Shown here piece by piece: positions 3,068 to 24,288 of a DNA stretch of 36,052 bases; the first letter of the stretch is position 1; each line of letters begins with the position of its first letter. Under the pieces are notes generated by a model that was given only the letters and a program-made list of their open reading frames with translations, was not told the DNA's origin and did no database searches. A program made the position numbers and the translations under genes. This DNA is from an uncultured bacterium (lineage in GTDB: Bacteria; JADJOY01): the NCBI GenBank assembly GCA_964392195.1, contig CAYMQR010000002.1, forward strand, positions 1 through 36,052, written 5' to 3'.

Positions 3068-5074
3068 TCACAGCGCGGCGGCGATCCCGCGAACGATCTC
3101 CTCGGTCGACCCCGCCTCCCGAACGCGGTCGACGTAGCCGTGGAAACGCTCCACGTAGCGGCGCCCCTCGGGCGCGATCGCGCGCCGCCAGTCGCCCTTC
3201 GCCAGCGCCGCGTCGACCGCCCCCGGCCCCTGGTTGTAGGCCGCGAGCGCCAGGTCGAGCGCCTCGACGCGATGGCGCGCGCGATAGCCGACCACGTAGC
3301 GCGCGAGCTCGCGACCGGTCTTGAGCGCGCTCGCGCGCGGCGCGAACGGGATGCTGGGCGGCTCGGTGCGCAGGTAGAAGTGGTACGTGTGCTGGAACGG
3401 GCCGAGGGCACCGGTGGGCGAGACGGCGAACAGGTGACCGCGTGACTCGATCGCCAGCAGCGCGAGGAGCCAGCGCATCGCCTCCGCCGACGACACCTCT
3501 GCGTCGCGCGCCACCACCGCCGCCGCCGCCTCGAGGTCGGCACGGAAGAGCGTCGTGAACGCCTCGAAGGTCACTTGGTCACCGACGACGCCGACCTCGG
3601 TGCCGAAGTGGCGCGCGATCTCGCCCACCCGGCTCCGCGCCATGGCGTCGCGCTCGGCGGGCGCCAGACGCTGGTAGATCGTCAGGATCAGCGGCCGGAT
3701 GAAGTCGATGTGCACCTGGCGCGGAATCCGCTCCAGGATCGCGCGCGGCGCGCGCTCCCCGGCGAAGGCGTCGCCGGTGTAGCCGAGCAGCTCGTAGCGA
3801 GGCAGCACGAAGTCGCCACCCGGCACCGCGTAAGGCTCGGCGAGCAGCCCCTTGAGATCCGCGAGCCCGAGCGCACGCTCGGCGCGATCGAAGAACAAGG
3901 TGTCGTTGCGCACGCTCCGGTAGCGCTCGAAGAACGCCTGATCGCTCATCGCGGTGAGCACGAAGAGGCGGTTCTCGTACGCCTCCTGCGGGATCTCGCG
4001 CGCCGGTCCGCGCGAGCCTCGCGGGGCCGAGCGCAGGAAGCGGCGCAGCTCGCGGGTGCGCGGTGGCAGCGCGGGATCCGCGATCGTCTGGCGCGCGGTC
4101 GCGGCCAGGAAGGAGAGCGAGTCGGCATCGCGCGCCTCGGGCGCGATCGCGCCGCGCGCGAAGTACGCGGCGGTGACCAAGGTGATCGGCTGGGCGCGAG
4201 CGGGGCGCGTGAGCTCCTCGGTGAGGCGCGAGAGCCGGAACGGGCCGACCGCGAAAGGCGCGTTCGGCCGCGAGCCGCCGGCCTCGGCCTCGAGCAGGTA
4301 GAGCATCAGCTCGTAGCGGTCGGCGAAGCGGCGCTTGGCGGCGAAGTCGTCGTCGTAGAAGAGATCCACGGCTTCCCAGAAGCTCGCGAACGCGCTCGGG
4401 TCCGCGAGCACGACGGTGGGCGCGCCGTTCTCGTCGGCGATCCGGGCGCGCTCGCCGGCGAAGGCGCGCGCGAGGCTCGCGCGGCGTGCCGGGTCGAGCA
4501 GCGGTGGATCAGCGCTCAGCACCTCGCGCCTCAGCGTGCCGAGCGCGTCGCGCAGCGCGCCGAAGCGCTCGTCGAAGCGCCGCACCGCGGCCTCGCCGGC
4601 GCCCCGATCGGCGGCTCGCGCGCGCTCTTCGTCGCGCGTGAGCCGCCACGCGTCCACCGCCGCGCGCGCCACCAGGTTGTGGGTGAAGTTGGGGTCGAAG
4701 GGTCTGCGGGTCTCGACCTCGTGGAGCACGATCTCCTGCAGCAGTTCCACCTGCTCGCGCGCGAGCCGGTCGAACCGTGTATCGAGCCGAGCGAGTCGCT
4801 CCCGATCGGCAGCGTCCAGGCCCGTCCCGGCCGCGGCGATGCGCTCGCGCGCCGCCGTGTAGGTCTTCTCCTGGCCGTCGCACAGGTTGCGGATGAACAC
4901 GAGCCGCGTCGCGACCCAGGCGTCGCCGGCATAGAGCGCCAGGAAGTCCTCGATCTGCGCGCGGACCGGGTCGGTGAGGCTCGCGCCGCCGCCCGCCGCC
5001 GTGCCGGCGAGCACGAGCGAGATGGCGATGCCGCTCGCGACCACCGCGATTCGCGAAGCGCGCGCGCGCGTCAT
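3068..5074 (-). CDS. large periplasmic/anchored protein with a C-terminal SLT (lytic murein transglycosylase) domain
   Basis: ATG 5074 overlaps the upstream stop (ATGA at 5071-5074). The N-terminal signal/anchor is MTRARASRIAVVASGIAISLVLAG. The C-terminus has LLAIESRGHLFAVSPTGALGPFQ ... LAAYNQGPGAV (the ES...GxxQ...AYNxG SLT signature). About 450 aa of N-terminal region is unassigned. The extra 249 aa in ORF 3068..5821 is an Arg-rich shadow. Confidence 0.8.
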   Translation of the reverse strand: MTRARASRIAVVASGIAISLVLAGTAAGGGASLTDPVRAQIEDFLALYAGDAWVATRLVFIRNLCDGQEKTYTAARERIAAAGTGLDAADRERLARLDTRFDRLAREQVELLQEIVLHEVETRRPFDPNFTHNLVARAAVDAWRLTRDEERARAADRGAGEAAVRRFDERFGALRDALGTLRREVLSADPPLLDPARRASLARAFAGERARIADENGAPTVVLADPSAFASFWEAVDLFYDDDFAAKRRFADRYELMLYLLEAEAGGSRPNAPFAVGPFRLSRLTEELTRPARAQPITLVTAAYFARGAIAPEARDADSLSFLAATARQTIADPALPPRTRELRRFLRSAPRGSRGPAREIPQEAYENRLFVLTAMSDQAFFERYRSVRNDTLFFDRAERALGLADLKGLLAEPYAVPGGDFVLPRYELLGYTGDAFAGERAPRAILERIPRQVHIDFIRPLILTIYQRLAPAERDAMARSRVGEIARHFGTEVGVVGDQVTFEAFTTLFRADLEAAAAVVARDAEVSSAEAMRWLLALLAIESRGHLFAVSPTGALGPFQHTYHFYLRTEPPSIPFAPRASALKTGRELARYVVGYRARHRVEALDLALAAYNQGPGAVDAALAKGDWRRAIAPEGRRYVERFHGYVDRVREAGSTEEIVRGIAAAL

Positions 5075-8000
5075 CGCGCCTCCAGGTGGAAACGCACCGT
5101 GGTCTCTCGCGCGGTTGTATCGCGAGCGCGGACGTCGACGACATGGCGTCCGGGTGGCAGTACCAGGTCCGCCTCCCACACCTCGGCTCCGCGGGCGGGG
5201 ACGTAGCCACCCTGCTCGTCGAGGCGGACCTCGACCTGCTCCACGCCGAGGGCGTCCTCGGCGAAGCCGAGGACGTGGACCTCGCCCGCGGCGACCACCT
5301 CTCCCTCGCCGTGGGACGAGACGCGGATGCGAGGCGGGTCGAGAAGGTCGTGGCCGTCGGAGCGCAGCTCCGCGCCGAATCCGAGCGCCGCGGCGATGGT
5401 GGGCGCGATGTCCTCGTTGCCGACCGGCAAGTCGACCGCGAGGCGCGGATGGCCGGGCGGATTCACGATCAAGAGCGGCACGTGGTCCTGTTCGCCGTCG
5501 GCGCCGCCGTGCTCGCCGCGATAGGTGTGCCCCTCGACGGCGAAGTAGTAAGGCGCGCGCGCCTCGACGAACAGATCGCCGGAGCGCGCCGAGCCGGCGA
5601 GGCCCGCGAGGCGTTCGGCGAGACGATCGCGGCGGCCGGTCTCGACGAGTGTCCACGCGCCGTCCGATCCGCCACGCGCCCCGACCGGAACGAACGCGTG
5701 CACGGGCGCTCTCTCGGCCCCGGTCGCGCGCCCCAGCGCGTGGATCCTCTCGACGAATGGCTGCGCGGCGAGCGCCGCGGCCACCGGCTCGAGCGCGTCG
5801 AGCCCCGGTGCGGTGCCCCACCCCGCGCCCGGACGGCGCACGCTCACCAGCGCGGCTCCGCCGTTGTCGCCTCCCGTGAACACCAGGCCGACGTCGCGGC
5901 TCTGGACGTCGACGTCGCCGCCGCGGTCGAGCGGCACCTGGAGGCCGGCACGCGCGAGCGCGCGATAGACCTCGCGATCGGAGATCGCGTGGCGCGCGTC
6001 GTTCGCGACCTCGCGCTGACCGTGGTCAGCGCTGACCACGAGCAACGTCTCGGCCAGCAGACCGCGCCGATCGAGGGCGTCCGCGACCTCGCCGATCAGC
6101 GGGTCGATGTGACGCTCCAGGTACCCGGCCTGGCGGTCGCCCGCCGCGCCGGCCGGTCCGGGCCCCTCGAGGTGGGACCACGAGTCGAGACCCGGGAACC
6201 ACAGCCCCAGCAGCTCGGGTGGTCGGTCTCCCTCGATCCGCGCGATCGCCTTGGCGGCGGCGTCGGCGTCGATCTTGGGGAAGTCCTCGAGGAACCCGAA
6301 GAGCTTGCCGCCGAACAGCGCCTCGAGGAGGCCGGGGGACGCGACCTCGCCACCGCCCCGGCGGACGGGGTCGAACACCACCGCGGTCTCGACCTTGCGC
6401 CCGCGCGCCGCCTCGGCGCCAGCGAGCGCTTCGTAGATCGTCGGCACGTCCGGCGCGAGGTCCGTCTCGAGCAGCGCGAACCCCGGGAAGCTCCACGCGC
6501 GGCCGAGCCCGGGATCGTCGGCGGATCCGAACTTGAGGTACTCGCGGCTGCGCCGCGCGAGCGGCTCTCCGACGTCGAGCGTGCGATCGAACCACTCGTT
6601 GCCGGTGATCTCGTGGCGCCCCGGGAGCGCGCCGGTGAAGATCGTGGTGTGGTTCGGGATCGTGTCGGCGGGCAGTGCCGCGAGGCAGCGCTCGAAGCGC
6701 ACGTAGCCGCGCTCTTGCAGCAGCCCCGCGAGCCGCGGCAGGCGCCCGCCGTCGAGCGCCGCGTAGAGCGAGCGCGCGCGCAGCGCGTCGATGACCAGCA
6801 CCACCGCGCGCGCGCGCACGTCGAGGCGATCGCGCAGCGCCTTGAGCGCGGTGAGCGCCTCCGCCCCGGTCACCGGGTCGCGTGGACGGAAGCGCTCGCC
6901 GGCCTCGCCACCCGCCCCCAGGATCCCCAGCGCCCGCGCCAGCTCGGCGGCTCCGCGGTACCACGCGTGCGGATCCACGTCCGCGAAGTGCGCCGGCTCC
7001 CCCACGCCTCGCAGCCCGAGCGTCGCGTCGCGCGACGAGCGGCTCAGCAGGTCCTCGATCACGCCCGCCAGCTCGGCGCGGCTCACCGCCTCGTCGGGGT
7101 GGAAGCCGCCGTCGGCGAACCGCTCGAGGCCGCGCACTCCCTGCGCGAGGACGCGGCCGATGTCGGTGGCGTGGCGGTTCGCGGCGGCGTCGCCCGGCAG
7201 CGCCGCCGGCGGGCGCGGCGCGGGCACTGCCCTGGGCGGCTCGTAGGTCGGGGGACCGGGCAGCGGCGGCAGGCGATCCACCCGGAGCTCCTGGACGAGC
7301 AGTGCCGCCAGCTCGCCTCGCGACAGGCGATCGAGCAAGCCCAGGCGCCTCCCTTCGGGGCTGCGCGGCGCCGCGGCGCGCACGGTCGTGAGTCGCGCCA
7401 GCGCGGCGCCCAGCGCCGCCGCGTCGACGTCCGCTCCTCCCAGATCCCGGGCGCGAGAGAGAGCCTCGGCGGCGCGCGCCAGGTCGAGCCCGGCACGAAA
7501 GATCGCGCCGAGGCGTGCCAGCGACGCGCCGTCCTCGGCGCGCTGAGCGCGCAGTACCGTCCATTCGCGCGCCGCGAGCTCGAGACCGCCGGACGGCGGC
7601 GCATCGCGCGCGCTCGCGTCGGCGAGCACGGCGACGATCGCCCGCGCCACCGCGACTCGCTCGTCGCGGGTCCGGGCCTGGACCAGGGCGCGCCGCAGCA
7701 CCTCCAGCGCCGTGTCCACGCGACCCGCCGCGCTCGCGCGCGAGGCGGCGTCGAGGGCCTCGGCGAGGCTCGCGCCGAGGGACACGAGGCCCGCCGTCGG
7801 TGGCGCCGCCTGGCTCCCGAACGCCTTCACGAAGCCCGCGAGATCCCGCCAGTAGATGGAGAATCCGAAGTGCTCCATCTCGAGGCGCGCGTCCGCGGGC
7901 GGCCAGCCCTGCACCTGCATGCGGTAGATCGCGGCCATCGCCCCGGTGCGGTCCTCGCCGTTGCGGCAATGGAAGAACACCGGACGCGCCGCGGGATCGG

Positions 8001-8343
8001 TGACCACGTCCAGGAAGCGCTCGATGTCGGCGGCGGACGGCGGCTCGCTCGGCGCGAGCGGGATGTGCACGACCCGAAAACCCAGGGCCTCGGCTCGCTC
8101 CCGGTACGGGACCGCGTCGCGCAGGCACACCAGCGTCTTCACCTGGGCGCGCTTCAGCACCTCGAGCCCAGCGTCGGTGGGCGACGCGCCGCGATAGACG
8201 CCGTCGTCGATGCGCGCGAAGCGCTCGATCCCGTCGACCTGGAACGTCTCGGCCTGCTCCAGCGGCGCGACCTCCGCGCGCGCTGGCCGAGCCGCGCTCG
8301 CCAGCACGAACCACACCGCGAGCGCAACCGCGAGGCGGGTCAT
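5071..8343 (-). CDS. secreted multidomain protein: Cys-X5-Arg (PTP-like) phosphatase + helical region + SLH repeats + nucleotide pyrophosphatase/phosphodiesterase (alkaline-phosphatase superfamily) + C-terminal beta domain
   Basis: ATG 8343 overlaps the upstream stop (ATGA at 8340-8343). Signal peptide is MTRLAVALAVWFVLASAARPARA. The phosphatase P-loop reads FFHCRNGEDRTGAM. SLH-type segments are FHPDEAVSRAELAGVIEDLL and FADVDPHAWYRGAAELARALGIL...FRPRDPVTGAEAL. NPP motifs are VLVIDALR, TIPNHTTIFTG, SADHGQ and GEHGG. The 411 aa upstream in ORF 5071..9576 is a shadow frame. Confidence 0.8.
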   Translation of the reverse strand: MTRLAVALAVWFVLASAARPARAEVAPLEQAETFQVDGIERFARIDDGVYRGASPTDAGLEVLKRAQVKTLVCLRDAVPYRERAEALGFRVVHIPLAPSEPPSAADIERFLDVVTDPAARPVFFHCRNGEDRTGAMAAIYRMQVQGWPPADARLEMEHFGFSIYWRDLAGFVKAFGSQAAPPTAGLVSLGASLAEALDAASRASAAGRVDTALEVLRRALVQARTRDERVAVARAIVAVLADASARDAPPSGGLELAAREWTVLRAQRAEDGASLARLGAIFRAGLDLARAAEALSRARDLGGADVDAAALGAALARLTTVRAAAPRSPEGRRLGLLDRLSRGELAALLVQELRVDRLPPLPGPPTYEPPRAVPAPRPPAALPGDAAANRHATDIGRVLAQGVRGLERFADGGFHPDEAVSRAELAGVIEDLLSRSSRDATLGLRGVGEPAHFADVDPHAWYRGAAELARALGILGAGGEAGERFRPRDPVTGAEALTALKALRDRLDVRARAVVLVIDALRARSLYAALDGGRLPRLAGLLQERGYVRFERCLAALPADTIPNHTTIFTGALPGRHEITGNEWFDRTLDVGEPLARRSREYLKFGSADDPGLGRAWSFPGFALLETDLAPDVPTIYEALAGAEAARGRKVETAVVFDPVRRGGGEVASPGLLEALFGGKLFGFLEDFPKIDADAAAKAIARIEGDRPPELLGLWFPGLDSWSHLEGPGPAGAAGDRQAGYLERHIDPLIGEVADALDRRGLLAETLLVVSADHGQREVANDARHAISDREVYRALARAGLQVPLDRGGDVDVQSRDVGLVFTGGDNGGAALVSVRRPGAGWGTAPGLDALEPVAAALAAQPFVERIHALGRATGAERAPVHAFVPVGARGGSDGAWTLVETGRRDRLAERLAGLAGSARSGDLFVEARAPYYFAVEGHTYRGEHGGADGEQDHVPLLIVNPPGHPRLAVDLPVGNEDIAPTIAAALGFGAELRSDGHDLLDPPRIRVSSHGEGEVVAAGEVHVLGFAEDALGVEQVEVRLDEQGGYVPARGAEVWEADLVLPPGRHVVDVRARDTTARETTVRFHLEAR

Positions 8344-17312: not shown

Positions 17313-17705
17313 GGGAGCTCCTCCCGCGGCGGCGCGCTCGTGCGCGCTCGCCTCGCGAAATCGAGAGATCGAGACCGCCGCCGGGCCGCCAGGTCGCGCT
17401 CTCGGGAGGCGGTGTGCCGGGCTCCCGCGTGGACCGGTAGCGCCAGAAATCCGCTCCGTGATCGAGCAAGGCACGTGCCGCGCGCCACCACGGCGCCGAG
17501 GGCGGCGCGTGGGCGCCCGGCGCCTCGGGCACGGTAGGGCGCCGTGGTGCTTTGTCTCGATGCGCGGACGTTCGTGGGGGAGCGAGCCCGCCGCGGCCGC
17601 CACGCGCACTACGGAACGGAACCCACCAGCGCCGTCGTCGTTACCGGACCGCCACCGCATGCGGCCACGAGGCCATGCGAAACACGCTGGTTCCGAATCG
17701 GACCG

Positions 17706-17721
17706 TGGCCGGGCACTTGCA
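17706..17721 (+). promoter_or_regulatory. sigma-54-like promoter upstream of the metallophosphoesterase lipoprotein gene
   Basis: TGGCCgggcacTTGCA has correct GG-N10-GC spacing and a TTGCA -12 box, but the -24 hexamer is imperfect. It sits about 56 nt upstream of ATG 17777. Confidence 0.35.
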
Positions 17722-17776
17722 ACTACACGAACCTCGCTGGCGTCGGAGTGAATCACGCATCCGGGAGGGCTCGGCC

Positions 17777-19057
17777 ATGACAGGATCCGCTCGACCACGT
17801 ACGGCGTTCGCGGCTTTCGTGATCTTGCTCACGGGACTGGTCCCCGCCTGCGGCGGTGGTGGAGGAGGAGGCGAGCCGACCGCCGATCCGCCGGAGCGAC
17901 CGAGCGAGCTAGTCGCGCGCAACGACCTCGGAGTTTCCCCTGCCCCGGGTGCCGGCGGAGCCGCGGGCCTCCTGCTCCGCTTCGTCCAGCTCACCGACCT
18001 CCACGTCATCGACGAGGACTTCCGCTTCTTCTCCGAGGACCTCGAGGACCTGATCGACGACTTCGGTGACGCGATCGGCTTCGGCGGCTACCAGCGCTCC
18101 GCCGACCAGGAGACCCGCGACGAGGACGTGGTGAGGGCGTTCGTCGCCACGATCAACGCGATGAGCCCACCGCCGGGCTACGTGATGTGCACCGGCGACA
18201 GCGCGGACTCGGGGATCGTCGGCGAGGCCGAGACCGCGCGCGACCTGCTCGACGAGCTCCGCGTGCCGTGGCTCCAGACGGTCGGCAACCACGATGACAT
18301 GGCGCTCGGAGTGATCCCGCCCGAGGTCGCCGACGACGTGGTGGACGGCGACTTCATGCAGATGGACGACTTCGTCGCGGTCACCTTCGGGGGCCGCCAC
18401 GAGCCGAGCGAGCGGCTGGCACGGGGCCACGGGTTCGCCCTCAATCCGCGCTACGACGGCACGGATCCGCGCACCAGTCGTGCCTACTACGCCTTCGACG
18501 CGGCCCCGCCGCTGGACGGCAACCCGGGCATCCGCTTCATCGTCCTCGAGACCACCGAGGAGGACGGCGGCGCCAACGGCTCGATCGGCGACGAGCAGCT
18601 CCGCTGGCTCGGCGACGAGCTCGACGCGCACGCCGACCAGCTCGCGGTGGTGTTCAGCCACGACCGGCTCGCCGACATCGACAATCCGCTCGGCCCCCGC
18701 GACGGCCACGACGTCGCCCGGGTCCTCGACCGCCACCCGCAGGTCATCGCCCACGTCTCGGGACACACCCACATCCACTCGGTGAGCGCCCACGCTGGCG
18801 CCGCTCCGGGGCAGGGATTCTGGGAAGTCCAGGGCTCGTCGCTCATCGACCAGCCCCAGAACGGGCGGGTTTTCGAGATCTCGAGCAACGGCGACGGCAC
18901 AGGCACGATCGTCAGCTACGTGTTCGAGCAGCGCGCCCGGGGCGCTCTCGGCGAGAGCGCGCGGATCTCCGCCGCGGCCGCGGCGCAGGACCCGTTCGAC
19001 GGCTCGGGCGAGCCCGACGACCGGAACGTCGCGCTCACGTTCGCCTTCCCGGGCTGA
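17777..19057 (+). CDS. secreted metallophosphoesterase lipoprotein (calcineurin-like)
   Basis: ATG 17777 is preceded by GGGAGGG. The lipobox is LLTGLVPACGGGGGGG. Motifs are QLTDLHVID, TGDSADSG, GNHD, VFSHD and SGHTHIH. Confidence 0.85.
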   Translation: MTGSARPRTAFAAFVILLTGLVPACGGGGGGGEPTADPPERPSELVARNDLGVSPAPGAGGAAGLLLRFVQLTDLHVIDEDFRFFSEDLEDLIDDFGDAIGFGGYQRSADQETRDEDVVRAFVATINAMSPPPGYVMCTGDSADSGIVGEAETARDLLDELRVPWLQTVGNHDDMALGVIPPEVADDVVDGDFMQMDDFVAVTFGGRHEPSERLARGHGFALNPRYDGTDPRTSRAYYAFDAAPPLDGNPGIRFIVLETTEEDGGANGSIGDEQLRWLGDELDAHADQLAVVFSHDRLADIDNPLGPRDGHDVARVLDRHPQVIAHVSGHTHIHSVSAHAGAAPGQGFWEVQGSSLIDQPQNGRVFEISSNGDGTGTIVSYVFEQRARGALGESARISAAAAAQDPFDGSGEPDDRNVALTFAFPG

Positions 19058-21785: not shown

Positions 21786-21879
21786 CGGCCACGGGATGGT
21801 CACACACAAGCCGCGCGAACTTCAATCGAGCCCCTCGGGAAGCTGGTAGAACCGGGTCGACCGCACGCCGAGGATCCCG

Positions 21880-24288
21880 ATGCCACCCAGCGCACGCTCG
21901 ATCGCCACTTCCCTCGCGCTCGCCGCCGTGTTCGCGCACACCGGCTGCTCCGGCGGCTCCGACGGCGGCGGAGGAGGAGGCCGCGGCGGCCTCACGATCC
22001 GCGACGAGGCGCTGCTGCCGGTGGGGGCGGCGGGCGCCGGGAGCTGGATCCTGCCAAACGGCCGCCGCATCGAGCCGGCGGGCACCATGGTGCACGTCGA
22101 CTCGCTGCCCCTCGGCGTGGTGCTGAGCGGCGACGGCCAGACACTGTTCGTGACCTCGAACGGCTCGGACGGTCGGCTCGCGGTGAGCGCGATCGACACT
22201 GTCGGCGGCACGGTGGTGTCCTCCCTCGAGCAGCGCGAGGGCCTCTACCTCGGCCTGGCGCTGGCGCCCGACGGCCGCACGCTCTACGCGGGCGGTGGCG
22301 GCGCCGAGCGCATCGTGGTCCTCGGCTGGGACGGCGCGGCGCTCACCGAGCAGCGCGCGTTCGCGGCCGGCGAGTTCCCCGCCGGCCTCGCGCTGAGCGC
22401 CGACGGCCGCACGCTGTTCGCGCTCACCCAGTCGTCGAACGGACTCGCCAGCTACGACGCCGCGAGCGGCGAACGGCTCGGCACGGTGCCGACCGGCGGC
22501 AACCCGTACGCGGTGGCGCTCTCGCCCGACGGCGGCGAGGCCTACGTGTCGTCGGAGAAGAGCGAGACGGTGGGCGTGTTCGACGTCCGCGATGCGGCTG
22601 CCATGCGCCAGGTCGCGACGATCCCGGTGCAGAAGAACCCGGAGGCGCTGGCGCTGTCCCGCGACGGCGCGCGGCTCTACGTGGCGAACGCCGACGAGGA
22701 CTCGATCTCGATCGTCGACGTCCGCAGGCGCAGGGTGGCGAGCACCCTCGACCTGCGCAGCATCAACGCGCAGGGCTACGGCACCGGCCCCAACGCGCTG
22801 GCGCTGTCGCCGGACGGCCAGCGGCTCTACGTGGCGCAGGCCGCGGACAACCGCGTGGCGGTCGTGGACCTCGGCGCCAGCGCGGTGATCGGCGCGATCC
22901 CCACCGCGTGGTACCCGACCGCGCTCGCGCTCTCGCCCGACGGACGGCGCCTCCACGTGGCGTGCGCCAAGGGCATCGGCGCGGGGCCCAACGACGTCGA
23001 GGGCAACGACCTCGTCAACCGCTCCACGATCCAGATCGTCGACGTGCCGAGCGACGCCGAGCTGAGCGCGGCCGCGCTGCGCATCGACGAGATGAACTCG
23101 CGCGCCGCCCGCCTCTACGACGTGGACGAGAGCCGCTTCTCGAACCCGATCCCGCTCACCCGTGGCGGCCCCACGCCGATCGAGCACGTCTTCCTGGTGG
23201 TGCGCGAGAACAAGACCTACGACGCGCTGCTCGGCGACTTCGCGGGCGGCAACGGCAAGCCGGAGAATTGCCTCTACTGTGGCGATCCCACGCCCAACCT
23301 GCACGCGCTGGTCGAGCGCTTCGCGAGCGCCGACAACTACTACACCAACGCCGAGACCTCGGATCAGGGGCACCAGCTCCTGACCTCGTCACTCTCCAAC
23401 ACCTACGTGGAGAAGGTGCGCTTCGCCGAGGAGCGGCCGCTGCCGTTCGAGGCCGAGATCTACCTCAACCCGGCGGTATGGCCGAAGCGCCAGTACCTCT
23501 TCCAGGCGCTGCTCGCGAAGGAGATCCCGTTCCGCATCTACGGCGAGGCGGTGGGCACGTGGATCGGCAAGCTCATCTTCGACGCGCGCTACGTCCACTC
23601 GAGCCGGATCGACCCGCCGTTCTTCTGGCAGTACAGCCGCGACATCGACAAGATCGAGGAGCGGATCGTCGGGTGGGAGCGAGATGGCGTTCCGCCGTTC
23701 GTCTACATGCTGCTGCCCGACGACCACACCCTCGGCTGCGATCCGCCCTACCCCACGCCGCGCTCGATGGTCGCCGACAACGACCTCGCCACCGGGCGGT
23801 TCGTCGATTGGCTCACCCACAGCAAGTACTGGGACACCTCGGTGGCGTTCATCGTCGAGGACGACCCGCAGGCCGGCATCGACCACGTCGACGCGCACCG
23901 CTCGATCTTCGTCGCGGTGTCACCCTACGCCCGCCGAGCCCACGTCTCCGGCGTGATCGCCCACGAAGGCAGCCTGCTCGCGACGATCGAGCACCTGCTC
24001 GGGCTCGACCCGCTCACGATCTACGACGAGCTCGCGCAGCCGATGTGGGACCTGTTCACGAGCACGCCCGACCGCGAGCCGTTCGAGGCGCGCTCACGGC
24101 GAGTGCCGGAGGAGATGTCGATGCCGGGCACCAACTGCGGCTTCGCCACGCGCACCATGAACTTCCTCGACCCCGACCAGAACCCCGGGCTCGACGCCGT
24201 GCTGCGCGCCCACGAGCGCGAGGCCAAGGCCGCCGCGAACGAGCCGTCGCGGCGGTGGCAGGAGGTCGTGGACGAGAGCGGGCGGTAG
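21880..24288 (+). CDS. bifunctional lipoprotein: YncE/YVTN beta-propeller + AcpA/phospholipase-C-type phosphoesterase
   Basis: ATG 21880 is preceded by GAGGA. The lipobox is FAHTGCSGG. Repeated segments such as ALSPDGxxLYVA and ALAPDGRTLYAG mark propeller blades. The phosphoesterase family signature is VFLVVRENKTYDALLG, PNLHALVERFASADNYY and IVEDDPQAGIDHVDAHRS. Confidence 0.85.
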   Translation: MPPSARSIATSLALAAVFAHTGCSGGSDGGGGGGRGGLTIRDEALLPVGAAGAGSWILPNGRRIEPAGTMVHVDSLPLGVVLSGDGQTLFVTSNGSDGRLAVSAIDTVGGTVVSSLEQREGLYLGLALAPDGRTLYAGGGGAERIVVLGWDGAALTEQRAFAAGEFPAGLALSADGRTLFALTQSSNGLASYDAASGERLGTVPTGGNPYAVALSPDGGEAYVSSEKSETVGVFDVRDAAAMRQVATIPVQKNPEALALSRDGARLYVANADEDSISIVDVRRRRVASTLDLRSINAQGYGTGPNALALSPDGQRLYVAQAADNRVAVVDLGASAVIGAIPTAWYPTALALSPDGRRLHVACAKGIGAGPNDVEGNDLVNRSTIQIVDVPSDAELSAAALRIDEMNSRAARLYDVDESRFSNPIPLTRGGPTPIEHVFLVVRENKTYDALLGDFAGGNGKPENCLYCGDPTPNLHALVERFASADNYYTNAETSDQGHQLLTSSLSNTYVEKVRFAEERPLPFEAEIYLNPAVWPKRQYLFQALLAKEIPFRIYGEAVGTWIGKLIFDARYVHSSRIDPPFFWQYSRDIDKIEERIVGWERDGVPPFVYMLLPDDHTLGCDPPYPTPRSMVADNDLATGRFVDWLTHSKYWDTSVAFIVEDDPQAGIDHVDAHRSIFVAVSPYARRAHVSGVIAHEGSLLATIEHLLGLDPLTIYDELAQPMWDLFTSTPDREPFEARSRRVPEEMSMPGTNCGFATRTMNFLDPDQNPGLDAVLRAHEREAKAAANEPSRRWQEVVDESGR

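What the first reader, a model, noticed from the sequence alone, without database searches (positions are those of the whole stretch)
5071..8343. Periplasmic fusion of a Cys-based phosphatase, SLH anchors and an NPP-type phosphodiesterase
One secreted polypeptide combines three elements. The first is a PTP-like P-loop (HCRNGEDRTG). The second is SLH-type repeats. The third is a complete nucleotide pyrophosphatase/phosphodiesterase catalytic set (DALR, TIPNHTT Thr nucleophile, SADHG, GEHGG). Two mechanistically unrelated phosphoesterases tethered to a cell-wall-binding module, inside the lipoprotein operon and translationally coupled on both sides, is an unusual architecture. It hints at processing of a phosphodiester-linked envelope polymer or a nucleotide-type substrate in the periplasm.
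Basis: partly seen in the sequence, partly recalled or inferred. Interest (0 to 1): 0.6.

Follow-up and report, generated by a model that had tools for sequence, protein, structure and literature searches.

The report
Wall-tethered exported double phosphatase fusion
This gene encodes a real, conserved but rare exported protein that joins a cysteine phosphatase, a complete cell-wall-binding (SLH) module and a zinc phosphatase/phosphodiesterase, in bacteria that lack the usual machinery for making what SLH modules normally bind, so its target is unknown.

Summary
Window 5071-8343 (-) encodes a 1090-aa Sec-exported protein. In order it has a TpbA-like Cys phosphatase (HCX5RT intact), TPR-like helices, a complete three-repeat SLH domain, and an NPP/PafA-clade two-metal phosphoesterase. 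That last domain has all six metal ligands, the Thr nucleophile and the contact Asn invariant. A C-terminal Ig-like domain follows. ATGA overlaps link the gene to both neighbours.

The whole architecture recurs in about 19 protein clusters, found in the window's own genus and in Syntrophaceae MAGs. Nothing else among 1.84 billion representatives has it. Each module also has stand-alone relatives.

The functional reading is only partly supported:
- No CsaB pyruvyltransferase and no LCP ligase was found in 7-8 genomes that carry the gene or are close relatives. A canonical phosphodiester-linked SLH ligand polymer is therefore unlikely.
- The closest solved relative of the "NPP" domain by profile is the monoesterase PafA, so diesterase activity is unproven.
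- The phosphatase Cys is lost in one subclade while the NPP site stays invariant.
- In Syntrophaceae the gene stands alone among housekeeping genes.

Best reading: a periplasmic, wall-docked phosphoesterase whose core activity is the metal domain, probably releasing phosphate from organophosphates. This is a new variant of a known kind, of moderate interest.

The parts
8275..8343 (-). Sec signal peptide, residues 1-23, predicted cleavage ARA|EV. The ATG overlaps the TGA of the upstream FlgT_N-like lipoprotein gene (ATGA).
   Evidence: Translation. Junction sequence. Homologues start at the same position with hydrophobic N-termini, and some carry lipoboxes.
7816..8238 (-). Cys-based dual-specificity/PTP-like phosphatase domain, residues 36-176. 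P-loop H125-C126-x5-R132-T133. Candidate acid E100.
   Evidence: Pfam PF22741 70.8 bits, PF22785 and PF03162. TpbA 4r0s E 1.3e-13 over residues 24-173. P-loop comparison across the family.
7369..7776 (-). TPR-like all-helical spacer, residues 190-325.
   Evidence: AF2 helices H193-H324 with pLDDT about 80-93. TPR_19 is above cut-off in the Syntrophaceae homologue, which carries an extra repeat. This is the least conserved module.
6823..7368 (-). Complete three-repeat SLH domain, residues 326-507. The TRAE-type motifs are SRGE (R342), SRAE (R422) and TGAE (no Arg).
   Evidence: Pfam SLH 36.6 bits against a cut-off of 20.8. The AF2 sub-model matches Sap and SpaA SLH domains. Motifs and invariant columns.
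5359..6813 (-). NPP/PafA-clade alkaline-phosphatase-superfamily domain, residues 511-995. Metal ligands D519, D720, H724, D773, H774, H945. Nucleophile T561. Contact residue N582. Family-specific inserts carry REYxKxG..DPGLG and DPVRRG.
   Evidence: Pfam Phosphodiest 93.3 bits. Alignment to Xac NPP. Invariance in 15 homologues. Foldseek to NPP5, Xac NPP, NPP7 and SPAP with TMt about 0.7. Profile against PDB, best hit PafA.
5074..5337 (-). C-terminal Ig-like beta-sandwich (Big_7-like), residues 1003-1090. The stop codon at 5071-5073 overlaps the ATG of the downstream gene.
   Evidence: Big_7 is below cut-off here (12.6 bits) but above it in the L019 homologue (26 against 24.1). AF2 predicts an all-beta domain with pLDDT 80-90. 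The same module occurs as repeats in other proteins.
8340..9599 (-). Upstream lipoprotein with a weak FlgT_N-like N-terminus. It is the only neighbour conserved next to the target within the genus.
   Evidence: Pfam FlgT_N 22.7 bits, below cut-off. Synteny in L011 and L017 at 70-71% identity.
3068..5074 (-). Downstream exported protein with a C-terminal SLT-type lytic transglycosylase domain, translationally coupled in this window only.
   Evidence: Pfam SLT 20.0 bits against a cut-off of 21.3. ES...GPFQ...AYNQG motifs are visible in the translation. No match in L011 (only about 1.8 kb held downstream of the target) or in L017.
9596..10774 (-). Stand-alone TPR-SLH paralogue of the target's central module.
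   Evidence: Pfam SLH 45.1 bits plus TPR families. 27% identity to target residues 315-512, E 1e-9. It is the only other SLH hit in the genome.

Best explanation
The gene encodes a genuine Sec-exported multidomain enzyme of a diderm bacterium. It arose by fusing three kinds of protein that also exist separately: a roughly 200-aa TpbA-like Cys phosphatase, a roughly 390-aa TPR-SLH protein, and a 500-800-aa NPP/PafA-type two-metal phosphoesterase. An Ig-like tail is added at the C-terminus.

Shown: the architecture, the intact catalytic residues of both enzymes, the complete SLH fold, conservation of the whole protein, and export signals.

Inferred:
- After export, the SLH module docks the protein non-covalently to the peptidoglycan layer, or to an anionic glycan on it, in the periplasm.
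- The invariant metal domain is the core catalyst. It attacks a phosphoester with Thr561 on a two-metal centre.
- The Cys126 phosphatase adds a second, dispensable phosphomonoesterase activity.
- The most likely physiological role is release of phosphate from organophosphates or envelope-associated phosphoesters reaching the periplasm. This fits the several other exported phosphoesterases encoded beside it in this genus.

The protein works as a self-contained unit. It does not depend on the lipoprotein operon into which it is inserted here.
For: - Domains and thresholds.
- Catalytic residues aligned to solved enzymes and invariant.
- Folds.
- Export and diderm status: signal peptides or lipoboxes in all homologues; Omp85/BamA present in the genomes.
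- Whole-protein conservation at 46-80% identity in two distant lineages.
- Stand-alone relatives exist for each module.
- The stand-alone TPR-SLH family lies in cell-wall contexts: an LPP20-like partner, and in L027 an Amidase_3 gene.
- The NPP site is invariant while one clade lost the PTP Cys, Arg and acid residue.
- Neighbouring exported phosphoesterases: Metallophos at 17552-19057 and an AcpA/PLC-type gene at 21850-24288; another Metallophos downstream in L017.
- The gene is autonomous in Syntrophaceae.
Against: - No substrate is identified.
- Monoester versus diester specificity is unresolved: PafA is the best profile hit, while NPPs are the best fold hits.
- The SLH ligand is unknown, because the canonical CsaB and LCP machinery was not found. 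Wall docking is therefore inferred from fold alone.
- No Pho-regulon gene or regulatory signal was shown.
- In Syntrophaceae there is no phosphoesterase neighbourhood.
- Final localisation (periplasm or cell surface) is not established.
Confidence: 0.55

Rival explanations
1. The SLH module binds an endogenous phosphodiester-linked secondary cell-wall polymer. The NPP domain cuts its phosphodiester linkage or backbone, and the Cys phosphatase trims the resulting phosphomonoester. This would be turnover or remodelling of an envelope polymer.
For: - A complete SLH fold, with the ligand-binding Arg kept in two of the three TRAE-type motifs.
- Translational coupling to an SLT-type lytic transglycosylase and a FlgT_N-like lipoprotein in this window.
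- The related stand-alone TPR-SLH genes sit with LPP20-like genes, and in L027 also with a PG-amidase gene.
Against: - No PF04230 pyruvyltransferase in 8 genomes and no PF03816 LCP ligase in 7. The SLH-using controls (Synechococcus, Thermus, Deinococcus, Thermotoga) have both.
- At the search threshold, SLH was detected at only 0-2 sites per genome, and every site examined lies in the fusion or a TPR-SLH-type protein. There is no sign of a general SLH-anchoring polymer.
- The envelope gene context is absent in Syntrophaceae.
- The closest solved relative is a monoesterase.
Confidence: 0.17
2. A periplasmic signalling enzyme. The TpbA-like domain dephosphorylates a periplasmic protein domain, as proposed for TpbA acting on TpbB/YfiN. 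The NPP domain degrades a nucleotide signal.
For: The best solved match of the N-terminal domain is the periplasmic phosphatase TpbA (E 1.3e-13). TpbA acts on pTyr peptides from the periplasmic part of TpbB (PMC4409338). NPP-family enzymes hydrolyse nucleotides and cyclic dinucleotides (titles of the hits).
Against: - The catalytic Cys and Arg are lost in a whole subclade that keeps every other module.
- The position after the nucleophile is Ile or Leu. From memory, Xac NPP and NPP1 have an aromatic residue there that stacks on the base.
- No diguanylate cyclase or kinase partner is encoded nearby in any locus.
Confidence: 0.08
3. A surface-exposed or released enzyme whose SLH module recognises a foreign ligand, namely pyruvylated wall polymers of other bacteria or their remains. 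This would target the two phosphoesterases to exogenous cell-wall debris for phosphorus recovery.
For: - The carriers appear to lack the machinery to make the canonical SLH ligand, yet keep the Arg-containing binding motifs.
- Some homologues carry lipoboxes, which could allow surface display.
- In the genus the gene lies beside CsgG-like outer-membrane lipoprotein genes.
Against: - Only a Sec signal is present in the window's protein.
- No secretion system is linked to the gene in Syntrophaceae.
- There is no direct evidence of an extracellular location.
Confidence: 0.1
4. An artefact: a chimeric assembly, a mis-called fusion of adjacent genes, or a decaying pseudogene.
For: The genome is a fragmented MAG (850 contigs, 75% complete). 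Its high G+C content produces long spurious ORFs.
Against: - A single uninterrupted frame with no stops.
- The same full-length architecture occurs in about 19 clusters from independent assemblies, including a closed chromosome.
- Catalytic residues are invariant.
Confidence: 0.01

Closest known systems
TpbA (PA3885) of Pseudomonas aeruginosa, a periplasmic dual-specificity phosphatase (PDB 4r0s, 2m3v)
   Same: Both are exported. Both have the DSP fold with an HCX5R P-loop. The alignment runs over about 150 residues (E 1.3e-13). The PTP loop is described in PMC4409338.
   Different: TpbA is a stand-alone protein of about 200 aa. Here the domain is the N-terminus of a 1090-aa fusion. The TpbA general acid D105 aligns to S99/E100, so it is not clearly conserved. 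One subclade of the family has lost the Cys.
PafA and PhoK/SPAP: Thr-nucleophile alkaline phosphatases of the NPP-like branch (PDB 5tj3, 3q3q)
   Same: PafA is the best profile match (E 3e-27). Both share the GN(D/E)W(Y/F)D motif around the contact Asn, the Thr nucleophile, the two-metal ligand set and a similar C-terminal segment. PafA active-site residues are described in PMC10629569.
   Different: Equivalents of the monoesterase-specific K162 and R164 could not be aligned. The window's domain has its own inserts (REYxKxG..DPGLG, DPVRRG). It is also fused to PTP, SLH and Ig modules.
Xanthomonas NPP and the vertebrate ENPP1-7 nucleotide pyrophosphatases/phosphodiesterases
   Same: These are the best fold matches (TMt about 0.7). 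All six metal ligands, the Thr and the Asn align. Pfam Phosphodiest is well above cut-off.
   Different: Sequence identity is only 13-18%. The residue after the nucleophile is Ile or Leu rather than aromatic. The domain is about 100 residues larger because of inserts. Diesterase activity is untested.
SLH-anchored wall enzymes and S-layer proteins of Firmicutes (Sap, SpaA), and SLH-bearing outer-membrane tethers of Deinococcus-Thermus, Cyanobacteria and Thermotogae
   Same: Same three-repeat SLH fold, with TRAE-type motifs carrying Arg in two repeats. The SLH module is used as a non-catalytic part of a larger exported protein.
   Different: Those organisms carry CsaB and LCP enzymes, as the controls show. 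The carriers here have neither detectable. SLH hits in them are confined to this fusion and to TPR-SLH-type proteins.

Membership tests
Cys-based PTP/DSP superfamily (TpbA-like, PF22741/PF03162) | Sequence match above the curated family threshold | tested here: met
   PF22741 70.8 bits, PF22785 46.2, PF22784 37.4 and PF03162 36.4, each against a cut-off of 27. TpbA E 1.3e-13.
Cys-based PTP/DSP superfamily (TpbA-like, PF22741/PF03162) | HCX5R(S/T) phosphate-binding loop with nucleophilic Cys and Arg | tested here: met
   H125-C126-RNGED-R132-T133, aligned to TpbA 131-HCKHGNNR-138 (PMC4409338). It is not met in the relatives P0011, P0013 and P0014 (no Cys or Arg) or in P0010 (Arg replaced by Gln).
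Cys-based PTP/DSP superfamily (TpbA-like, PF22741/PF03162) | General acid Asp in the acid loop | tested here: inconclusive
   TpbA D105 aligns to S99/E100. An acidic residue (E or D) occupies that column in most Cys-containing members and is absent in the Cys-less clade. Its role is inferred only.
SLH domain (PF00395) | Sequence match above the curated threshold | tested here: met
   36.6 bits against a cut-off of 20.8, two stretches. 29.3 bits in the six-frame genome search.
SLH domain (PF00395) | Three repeats forming the SLH pseudo-trimer fold | tested here: met
   The AF2 model of residues 315-512 (pLDDT 81, pTM 0.82) aligns over about 197 columns to 3pyw, 6bt4 and 7sv3 (prob 1.00, TM 0.51-0.64).
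SLH domain (PF00395) | TRAE-type motif with ligand-binding Arg in the repeats | tested here: met
   SRGE (R342) and SRAE (R422) are invariant. The third repeat is TGAE, without Arg. The role of the Arg is taken from knowledge of the Sap and SpaA complexes.
Canonical SLH-SCWP anchoring system | CsaB-type pyruvyltransferase (PF04230) encoded in the genome | tested here: not met
   0 of 8 genomes: the own genome, 5 relatives and 2 Syntrophaceae including a closed chromosome. The controls hit in 9 of 14 genomes.
Canonical SLH-SCWP anchoring system | LCP (LytR-CpsA-Psr, PF03816) ligase that links a polymer to peptidoglycan by a phosphodiester | tested here: not met
   0 of 7 genomes. All four SLH-using control genomes have it.
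NPP / alkaline phosphatase superfamily (PF01663) | Sequence and fold match | tested here: met
   Phosphodiest 93.3 bits against a cut-off of 23. Foldseek to NPP5, Xac NPP and NPP7, E about 1e-13, TMt about 0.7.
NPP / alkaline phosphatase superfamily (PF01663) | Six ligands of the two-metal site, the Thr nucleophile and the contact Asn | tested here: met
   D519, D720, H724, D773, H774, H945, T561 and N582 align to Xac NPP and PafA. They are invariant in 15 homologues, and also in an 8-sequence alignment of three family members with five stand-alone relatives.
Nucleotide-specific NPPs (Xac NPP, ENPP1/3) | Aromatic residue after the nucleophile that stacks on the base (Phe91 in Xac NPP, from memory) | tested here: not met
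   The aligned position is I562, Leu in the Syntrophaceae members. The second clamp residue was not alignable.
PafA-type phosphomonoesterases | K162 and R164 contacting the phosphoryl oxygens (PMC10629569) | tested here: inconclusive
   The profile alignment to 5tj3 skips this segment.
Big_7 bacterial Ig domain (PF17957) | Match above the curated threshold | tested here: inconclusive
   12.6 bits against a cut-off of 24.1 in the window's protein. 26.0 bits in the L019 homologue. AF2 predicts a confident beta-sandwich.

The most novel reading that the evidence does not exclude
The SLH module here is an 'orphan' that recognises something other than a self-made pyruvylated, LCP-attached wall polymer. 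It might bind peptidoglycan directly, a new anionic or phosphorylated glycan, or wall debris of other bacteria. In that case the protein would be a self-contained bind-and-cleave machine in which the SLH domain acts as the substrate-targeting module for two phosphoesterases. That would be a new ligand class and a new use for SLH domains in Desulfobacterota-type diderms and in a barely sampled phylum.
Probability: 0.2. Interest if true: 0.7.

Novelty: new variant of a known kind. Interest (0 to 1): 0.42.

Why it matters
If the activities are confirmed, this would be a compact natural example of two unrelated phosphoesterase chemistries delivered to one envelope location by an SLH module. One chemistry uses a Cys thiolate and the other a two-metal Thr alkoxide.

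The SLH aspect has more general interest. The current picture ties SLH function to CsaB-made pyruvylated polymers, yet these carriers keep the binding motifs without CsaB or LCP. The protein therefore offers a tractable handle, a soluble 180-residue module, for asking what else SLH domains can bind.

The NPP-like domain and its stand-alone relatives also define an uncharacterised branch between PafA-type monoesterases and NPP diesterases. This is relevant to organophosphorus turnover in soils and sediments.

None of this changes a major paradigm. It is a specialist curiosity with clear experiments attached.

Tried and rejected
1. **Conserved-operon idea.** I ran tblastn of 13 window proteins against 7 related loci. 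Only the FlgT_N-like gene, the CsgG-like pair and nearby phosphoesterases are syntenic within the genus. Nothing is shared with the Syntrophaceae loci.
2. **Rosetta-stone search for separate PTP, TPR-SLH and NPP genes as neighbours elsewhere.** Contexts of stand-alone relatives showed no such linkage. They showed only an LPP20-like/TPR-SLH gene pair.
3. **Other long proteins combining this PTP domain with anything else.** The region search returned only the same family.
4. **Literature.** I found no paper on SLH plus phosphodiesterase or alkaline phosphatase fusions. There were no hits for the Pfam 'DSP-PTPase' names, and a first PafA/NPP query returned nothing.
6. **Taxonomic placement.** I do not adopt that label.
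7. **Recent transfer by composition.** The gene's G+C (74-77%) matches its surroundings, so there is no signal.
8. **Model coordinates.** They were not available in the Python box, so I could not measure active-site geometry or the distance of candidate Arg residues from the metals.


Full report
**1. What is there**

The window is about 72% G+C, so long spurious ORFs abound. The frame at 5071-8343 (-) translates to 1090 residues without a stop. It begins with a typical Sec signal, MTRLAVALAVWFVLASAARPARA|EV. The start ATG overlaps the TGA of the upstream gene (8340-9599), and the stop TGA overlaps the ATG of the downstream gene (3068-5074). Both junctions read ATGA.

**2. Domains**

Pfam gives three blocks above the curated cut-offs:
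- A Cys phosphatase at residues 40-176: PF22741 70.8 bits, PF22785 46.2, PF03162 36.4.
- SLH: 36.6 bits against a cut-off of 20.8.
- Phosphodiest at residues 514-788: 93.3 bits against a cut-off of 23.

A weak Big_7 hit lies at 1004-1067. It rises above cut-off in a homologue. NCBIfam adds only partial similarities, to PhoY, PhnA and PafA.

Against solved structures, the N-terminal domain matches the periplasmic phosphatase TpbA (E 1.3e-13). HCRNGEDR lies on TpbA's HCKHGNNR (PMC4409338). The C-terminal enzyme aligns to Xanthomonas NPP with D519, T561, N582, D720, H724, D773 and H774 on the known ligands.

An AF2 model of the whole protein (mean pLDDT 75) has NPP5, Xac NPP, NPP7 and SPAP as its best fold matches (TMt about 0.7).

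I modelled residues 315-512 separately (pLDDT 81, pTM 0.82). This piece matches the full three-repeat SLH domains of B. anthracis Sap and P. alvei SpaA over about 197 columns (prob 1.00). The SLH element is therefore a complete domain, not scattered motifs. Its TRAE-type motifs read SRGE, SRAE and TGAE, so the ligand-binding Arg is kept in two of the three repeats.

Between the phosphatase and the SLH domain lie seven confident helices (190-325). In Syntrophaceae homologues these score as TPR.

**3. Is it real and conserved?**

A search of 5.8 billion clusters found 15 clusters, including the query's own, all full length. A region search added four more. Those with organism labels come from the window's own genus (66-80% identity) and from Syntrophaceae or 'delta proteobacterium' MAGs (45-49% identity), including a closed 2.9-Mb chromosome.

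An exhaustive HMMER scan of 1.84 billion representatives found only one other representative with the whole architecture. Every other hit covers a single module:
- exported phosphatases of about 200 aa (40-49% identity);
- TPR-SLH proteins of about 380-400 aa;
- NPP-like proteins of 480-800 aa (31-37% identity);
- Ig repeats.

The protein is thus a rare fusion of three stand-alone protein types. One of them, the TPR-SLH type, is also encoded two genes upstream (9596-10774).

The window's phylum holds only six species genomes in the collection. Four of the five genomes of the genus have the gene, and the sister genus lacks it. A tree splits the family cleanly into the two host lineages.

**4. 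Catalytic integrity**

In the 15-sequence alignment, the six metal ligands, T561 and N582 are invariant. They stay invariant when stand-alone relatives are added.

The phosphatase P-loop is intact in the window's protein and in most members. One well-supported clade (P0011, P0013, P0014) has lost the Cys, the Arg and the acidic loop residue together, while keeping all other modules. P0010 has Arg replaced by Gln. The metal enzyme is therefore the indispensable catalyst, and the Cys phosphatase is accessory.

**5. Phosphodiesterase or phosphatase?**

A profile of the domain plus stand-alone relatives hits the monoesterase PafA best (E 3e-27). ENPP4, PhoK and Xac NPP follow. The GNEWFD motif mirrors PafA's GNDWYD.

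PafA's monoester-specific K162 and R164 (PMC10629569) fall in a segment that does not align. The residue after the nucleophile is Ile or Leu, unlike the aromatic residue of nucleotide-specific NPPs (that comparison is from memory). Specificity is therefore open, and the 'phosphodiesterase' label rests only on the Pfam family name.

**6. Context**

In this window the gene lies between a FlgT_N-like lipoprotein gene and an SLT-type transglycosylase gene. Nearby are LPP20-like, GNA1162/beta-helix and CsgG-like lipoprotein genes, and several exported phosphoesterase genes.

Within the genus, the syntenic set is the FlgT_N-like gene, the CsgG-like pair and neighbouring phosphoesterases. The TPR-SLH, beta-helix and SLT genes gave no match in the related loci. 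Another Metallophos gene lies downstream in L017.

In Syntrophaceae the gene sits alone among PGK, LeuA, aconitase, RNR, OsmC and HpaB genes, and its neighbours differ between genomes. The protein is therefore an autonomous unit.

**7. The SLH puzzle**

The carriers are diderms, with Omp85/BamA present. No PF04230 pyruvyltransferase was found in 8 genomes, and no PF03816 LCP ligase in 7. The four control genomes that use SLH (Synechococcus, Thermus, Deinococcus, Thermotoga) hit for both.

At the search threshold, SLH hits in these genomes number 0-2 each. In the own genome and in G041 they lie only in the fusion or the neighbouring TPR-SLH gene. The hits in G001, G002 and G004 on other contigs were not examined further. 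What the SLH domain binds remains open.

Stand-alone TPR-SLH relatives are paired with LPP20-like genes on several unrelated contigs. In one locus a peptidoglycan amidase gene also lies nearby. This keeps a cell-wall location plausible.

**8. Verdict**

The best explanation (confidence about 0.55) is an exported, wall-docked phosphoesterase with two catalytic domains. Its invariant core is the NPP/PafA-type metal domain, and it probably releases phosphate from organophosphates in the periplasm.

The rivals are:
- endogenous polymer processing (0.17);
- foreign-ligand targeting (0.10);
- TpbA-like signalling (0.08);
- artefact (0.01).

I class it as a new variant of a known kind, because SLH-tethered hydrolases and multidomain phosphatases are both familiar. 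The SLH domain without CsaB or LCP is the most interesting loose end.

Noticed in passing
window 9596-11803; L024 2-1709; L027 7073-9215; L028 4312-6472; L029 2-1601: An LPP20-like lipoprotein gene (the family of window 10832-11803, 40-55% identity) is directly followed by a roughly 400-aa TPR-SLH gene on several unrelated metagenomic contigs. In L027 and L028 the pair is preceded by an Amidase_3 (peptidoglycan amidase)-TPR gene and a further TPR gene. This looks like a conserved, undescribed wall-associated gene pair.
   Followed up: partly
P0011, P0013, P0014 (Syntrophaceae-type homologues), alignment A1 columns for residues 93-136: One clade of the fusion family has lost the phosphatase Cys, the Arg and the acidic loop residue together, yet keeps the domain (66% identity within the clade). 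This is a likely pseudophosphatase retained for binding or structure.
   Followed up: partly
P0017, P0019-P0021, P0023-P0025, P0028-P0030 (stand-alone relatives); L023 112-1920: The closest relatives of the NPP-like domain are proteins of 480-800 aa. The three N-termini I read (P0017, P0019, P0020) show no obvious signal peptide. These proteins share the family's REYVKY...DPGL insert and often have a helical C-terminal tail. This is an uncharacterised branch of the alkaline phosphatase superfamily. In L023 the neighbours are a DAGK_cat/YegS lipid kinase gene and an alpha/beta hydrolase gene.
   Followed up: no
whole genome G000 and relatives G001-G005: In the collection, the window's phylum contains only six species genomes (one family, two genera).
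   Followed up: partly
window 9596-14728 versus L011 and L017: The TPR-SLH gene and the 950-aa GNA1162 + beta-helix lipoprotein gene are present in this window but missing from the otherwise syntenic loci of two congeners. The LPP20-like gene is present in L011 only. The lipoprotein cluster is therefore modular and indel-prone.
   Followed up: partly
window 3068-5074 (-): A 668-aa exported protein whose C-terminus carries the ES / GxxQ / AYNxG motifs of family-1 lytic transglycosylases. It scores just under the Pfam SLT cut-off (20.0 against 21.3 bits). The long N-terminal part has no family match.
   Followed up: no
window 17552-19057 (+), 21850-24288 (+); L017 13370-14842 (-): Further phosphoesterase genes flank the lipoprotein cluster in this genus: a calcineurin-like Metallophos, a beta-propeller with a marginal AcpA/PLC-type 'Phosphoesterase' hit (23.6 bits against a cut-off of 23), and another Metallophos in the congener. 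I did not check their export signals. This suggests a phosphorus-acquisition neighbourhood.
   Followed up: partly
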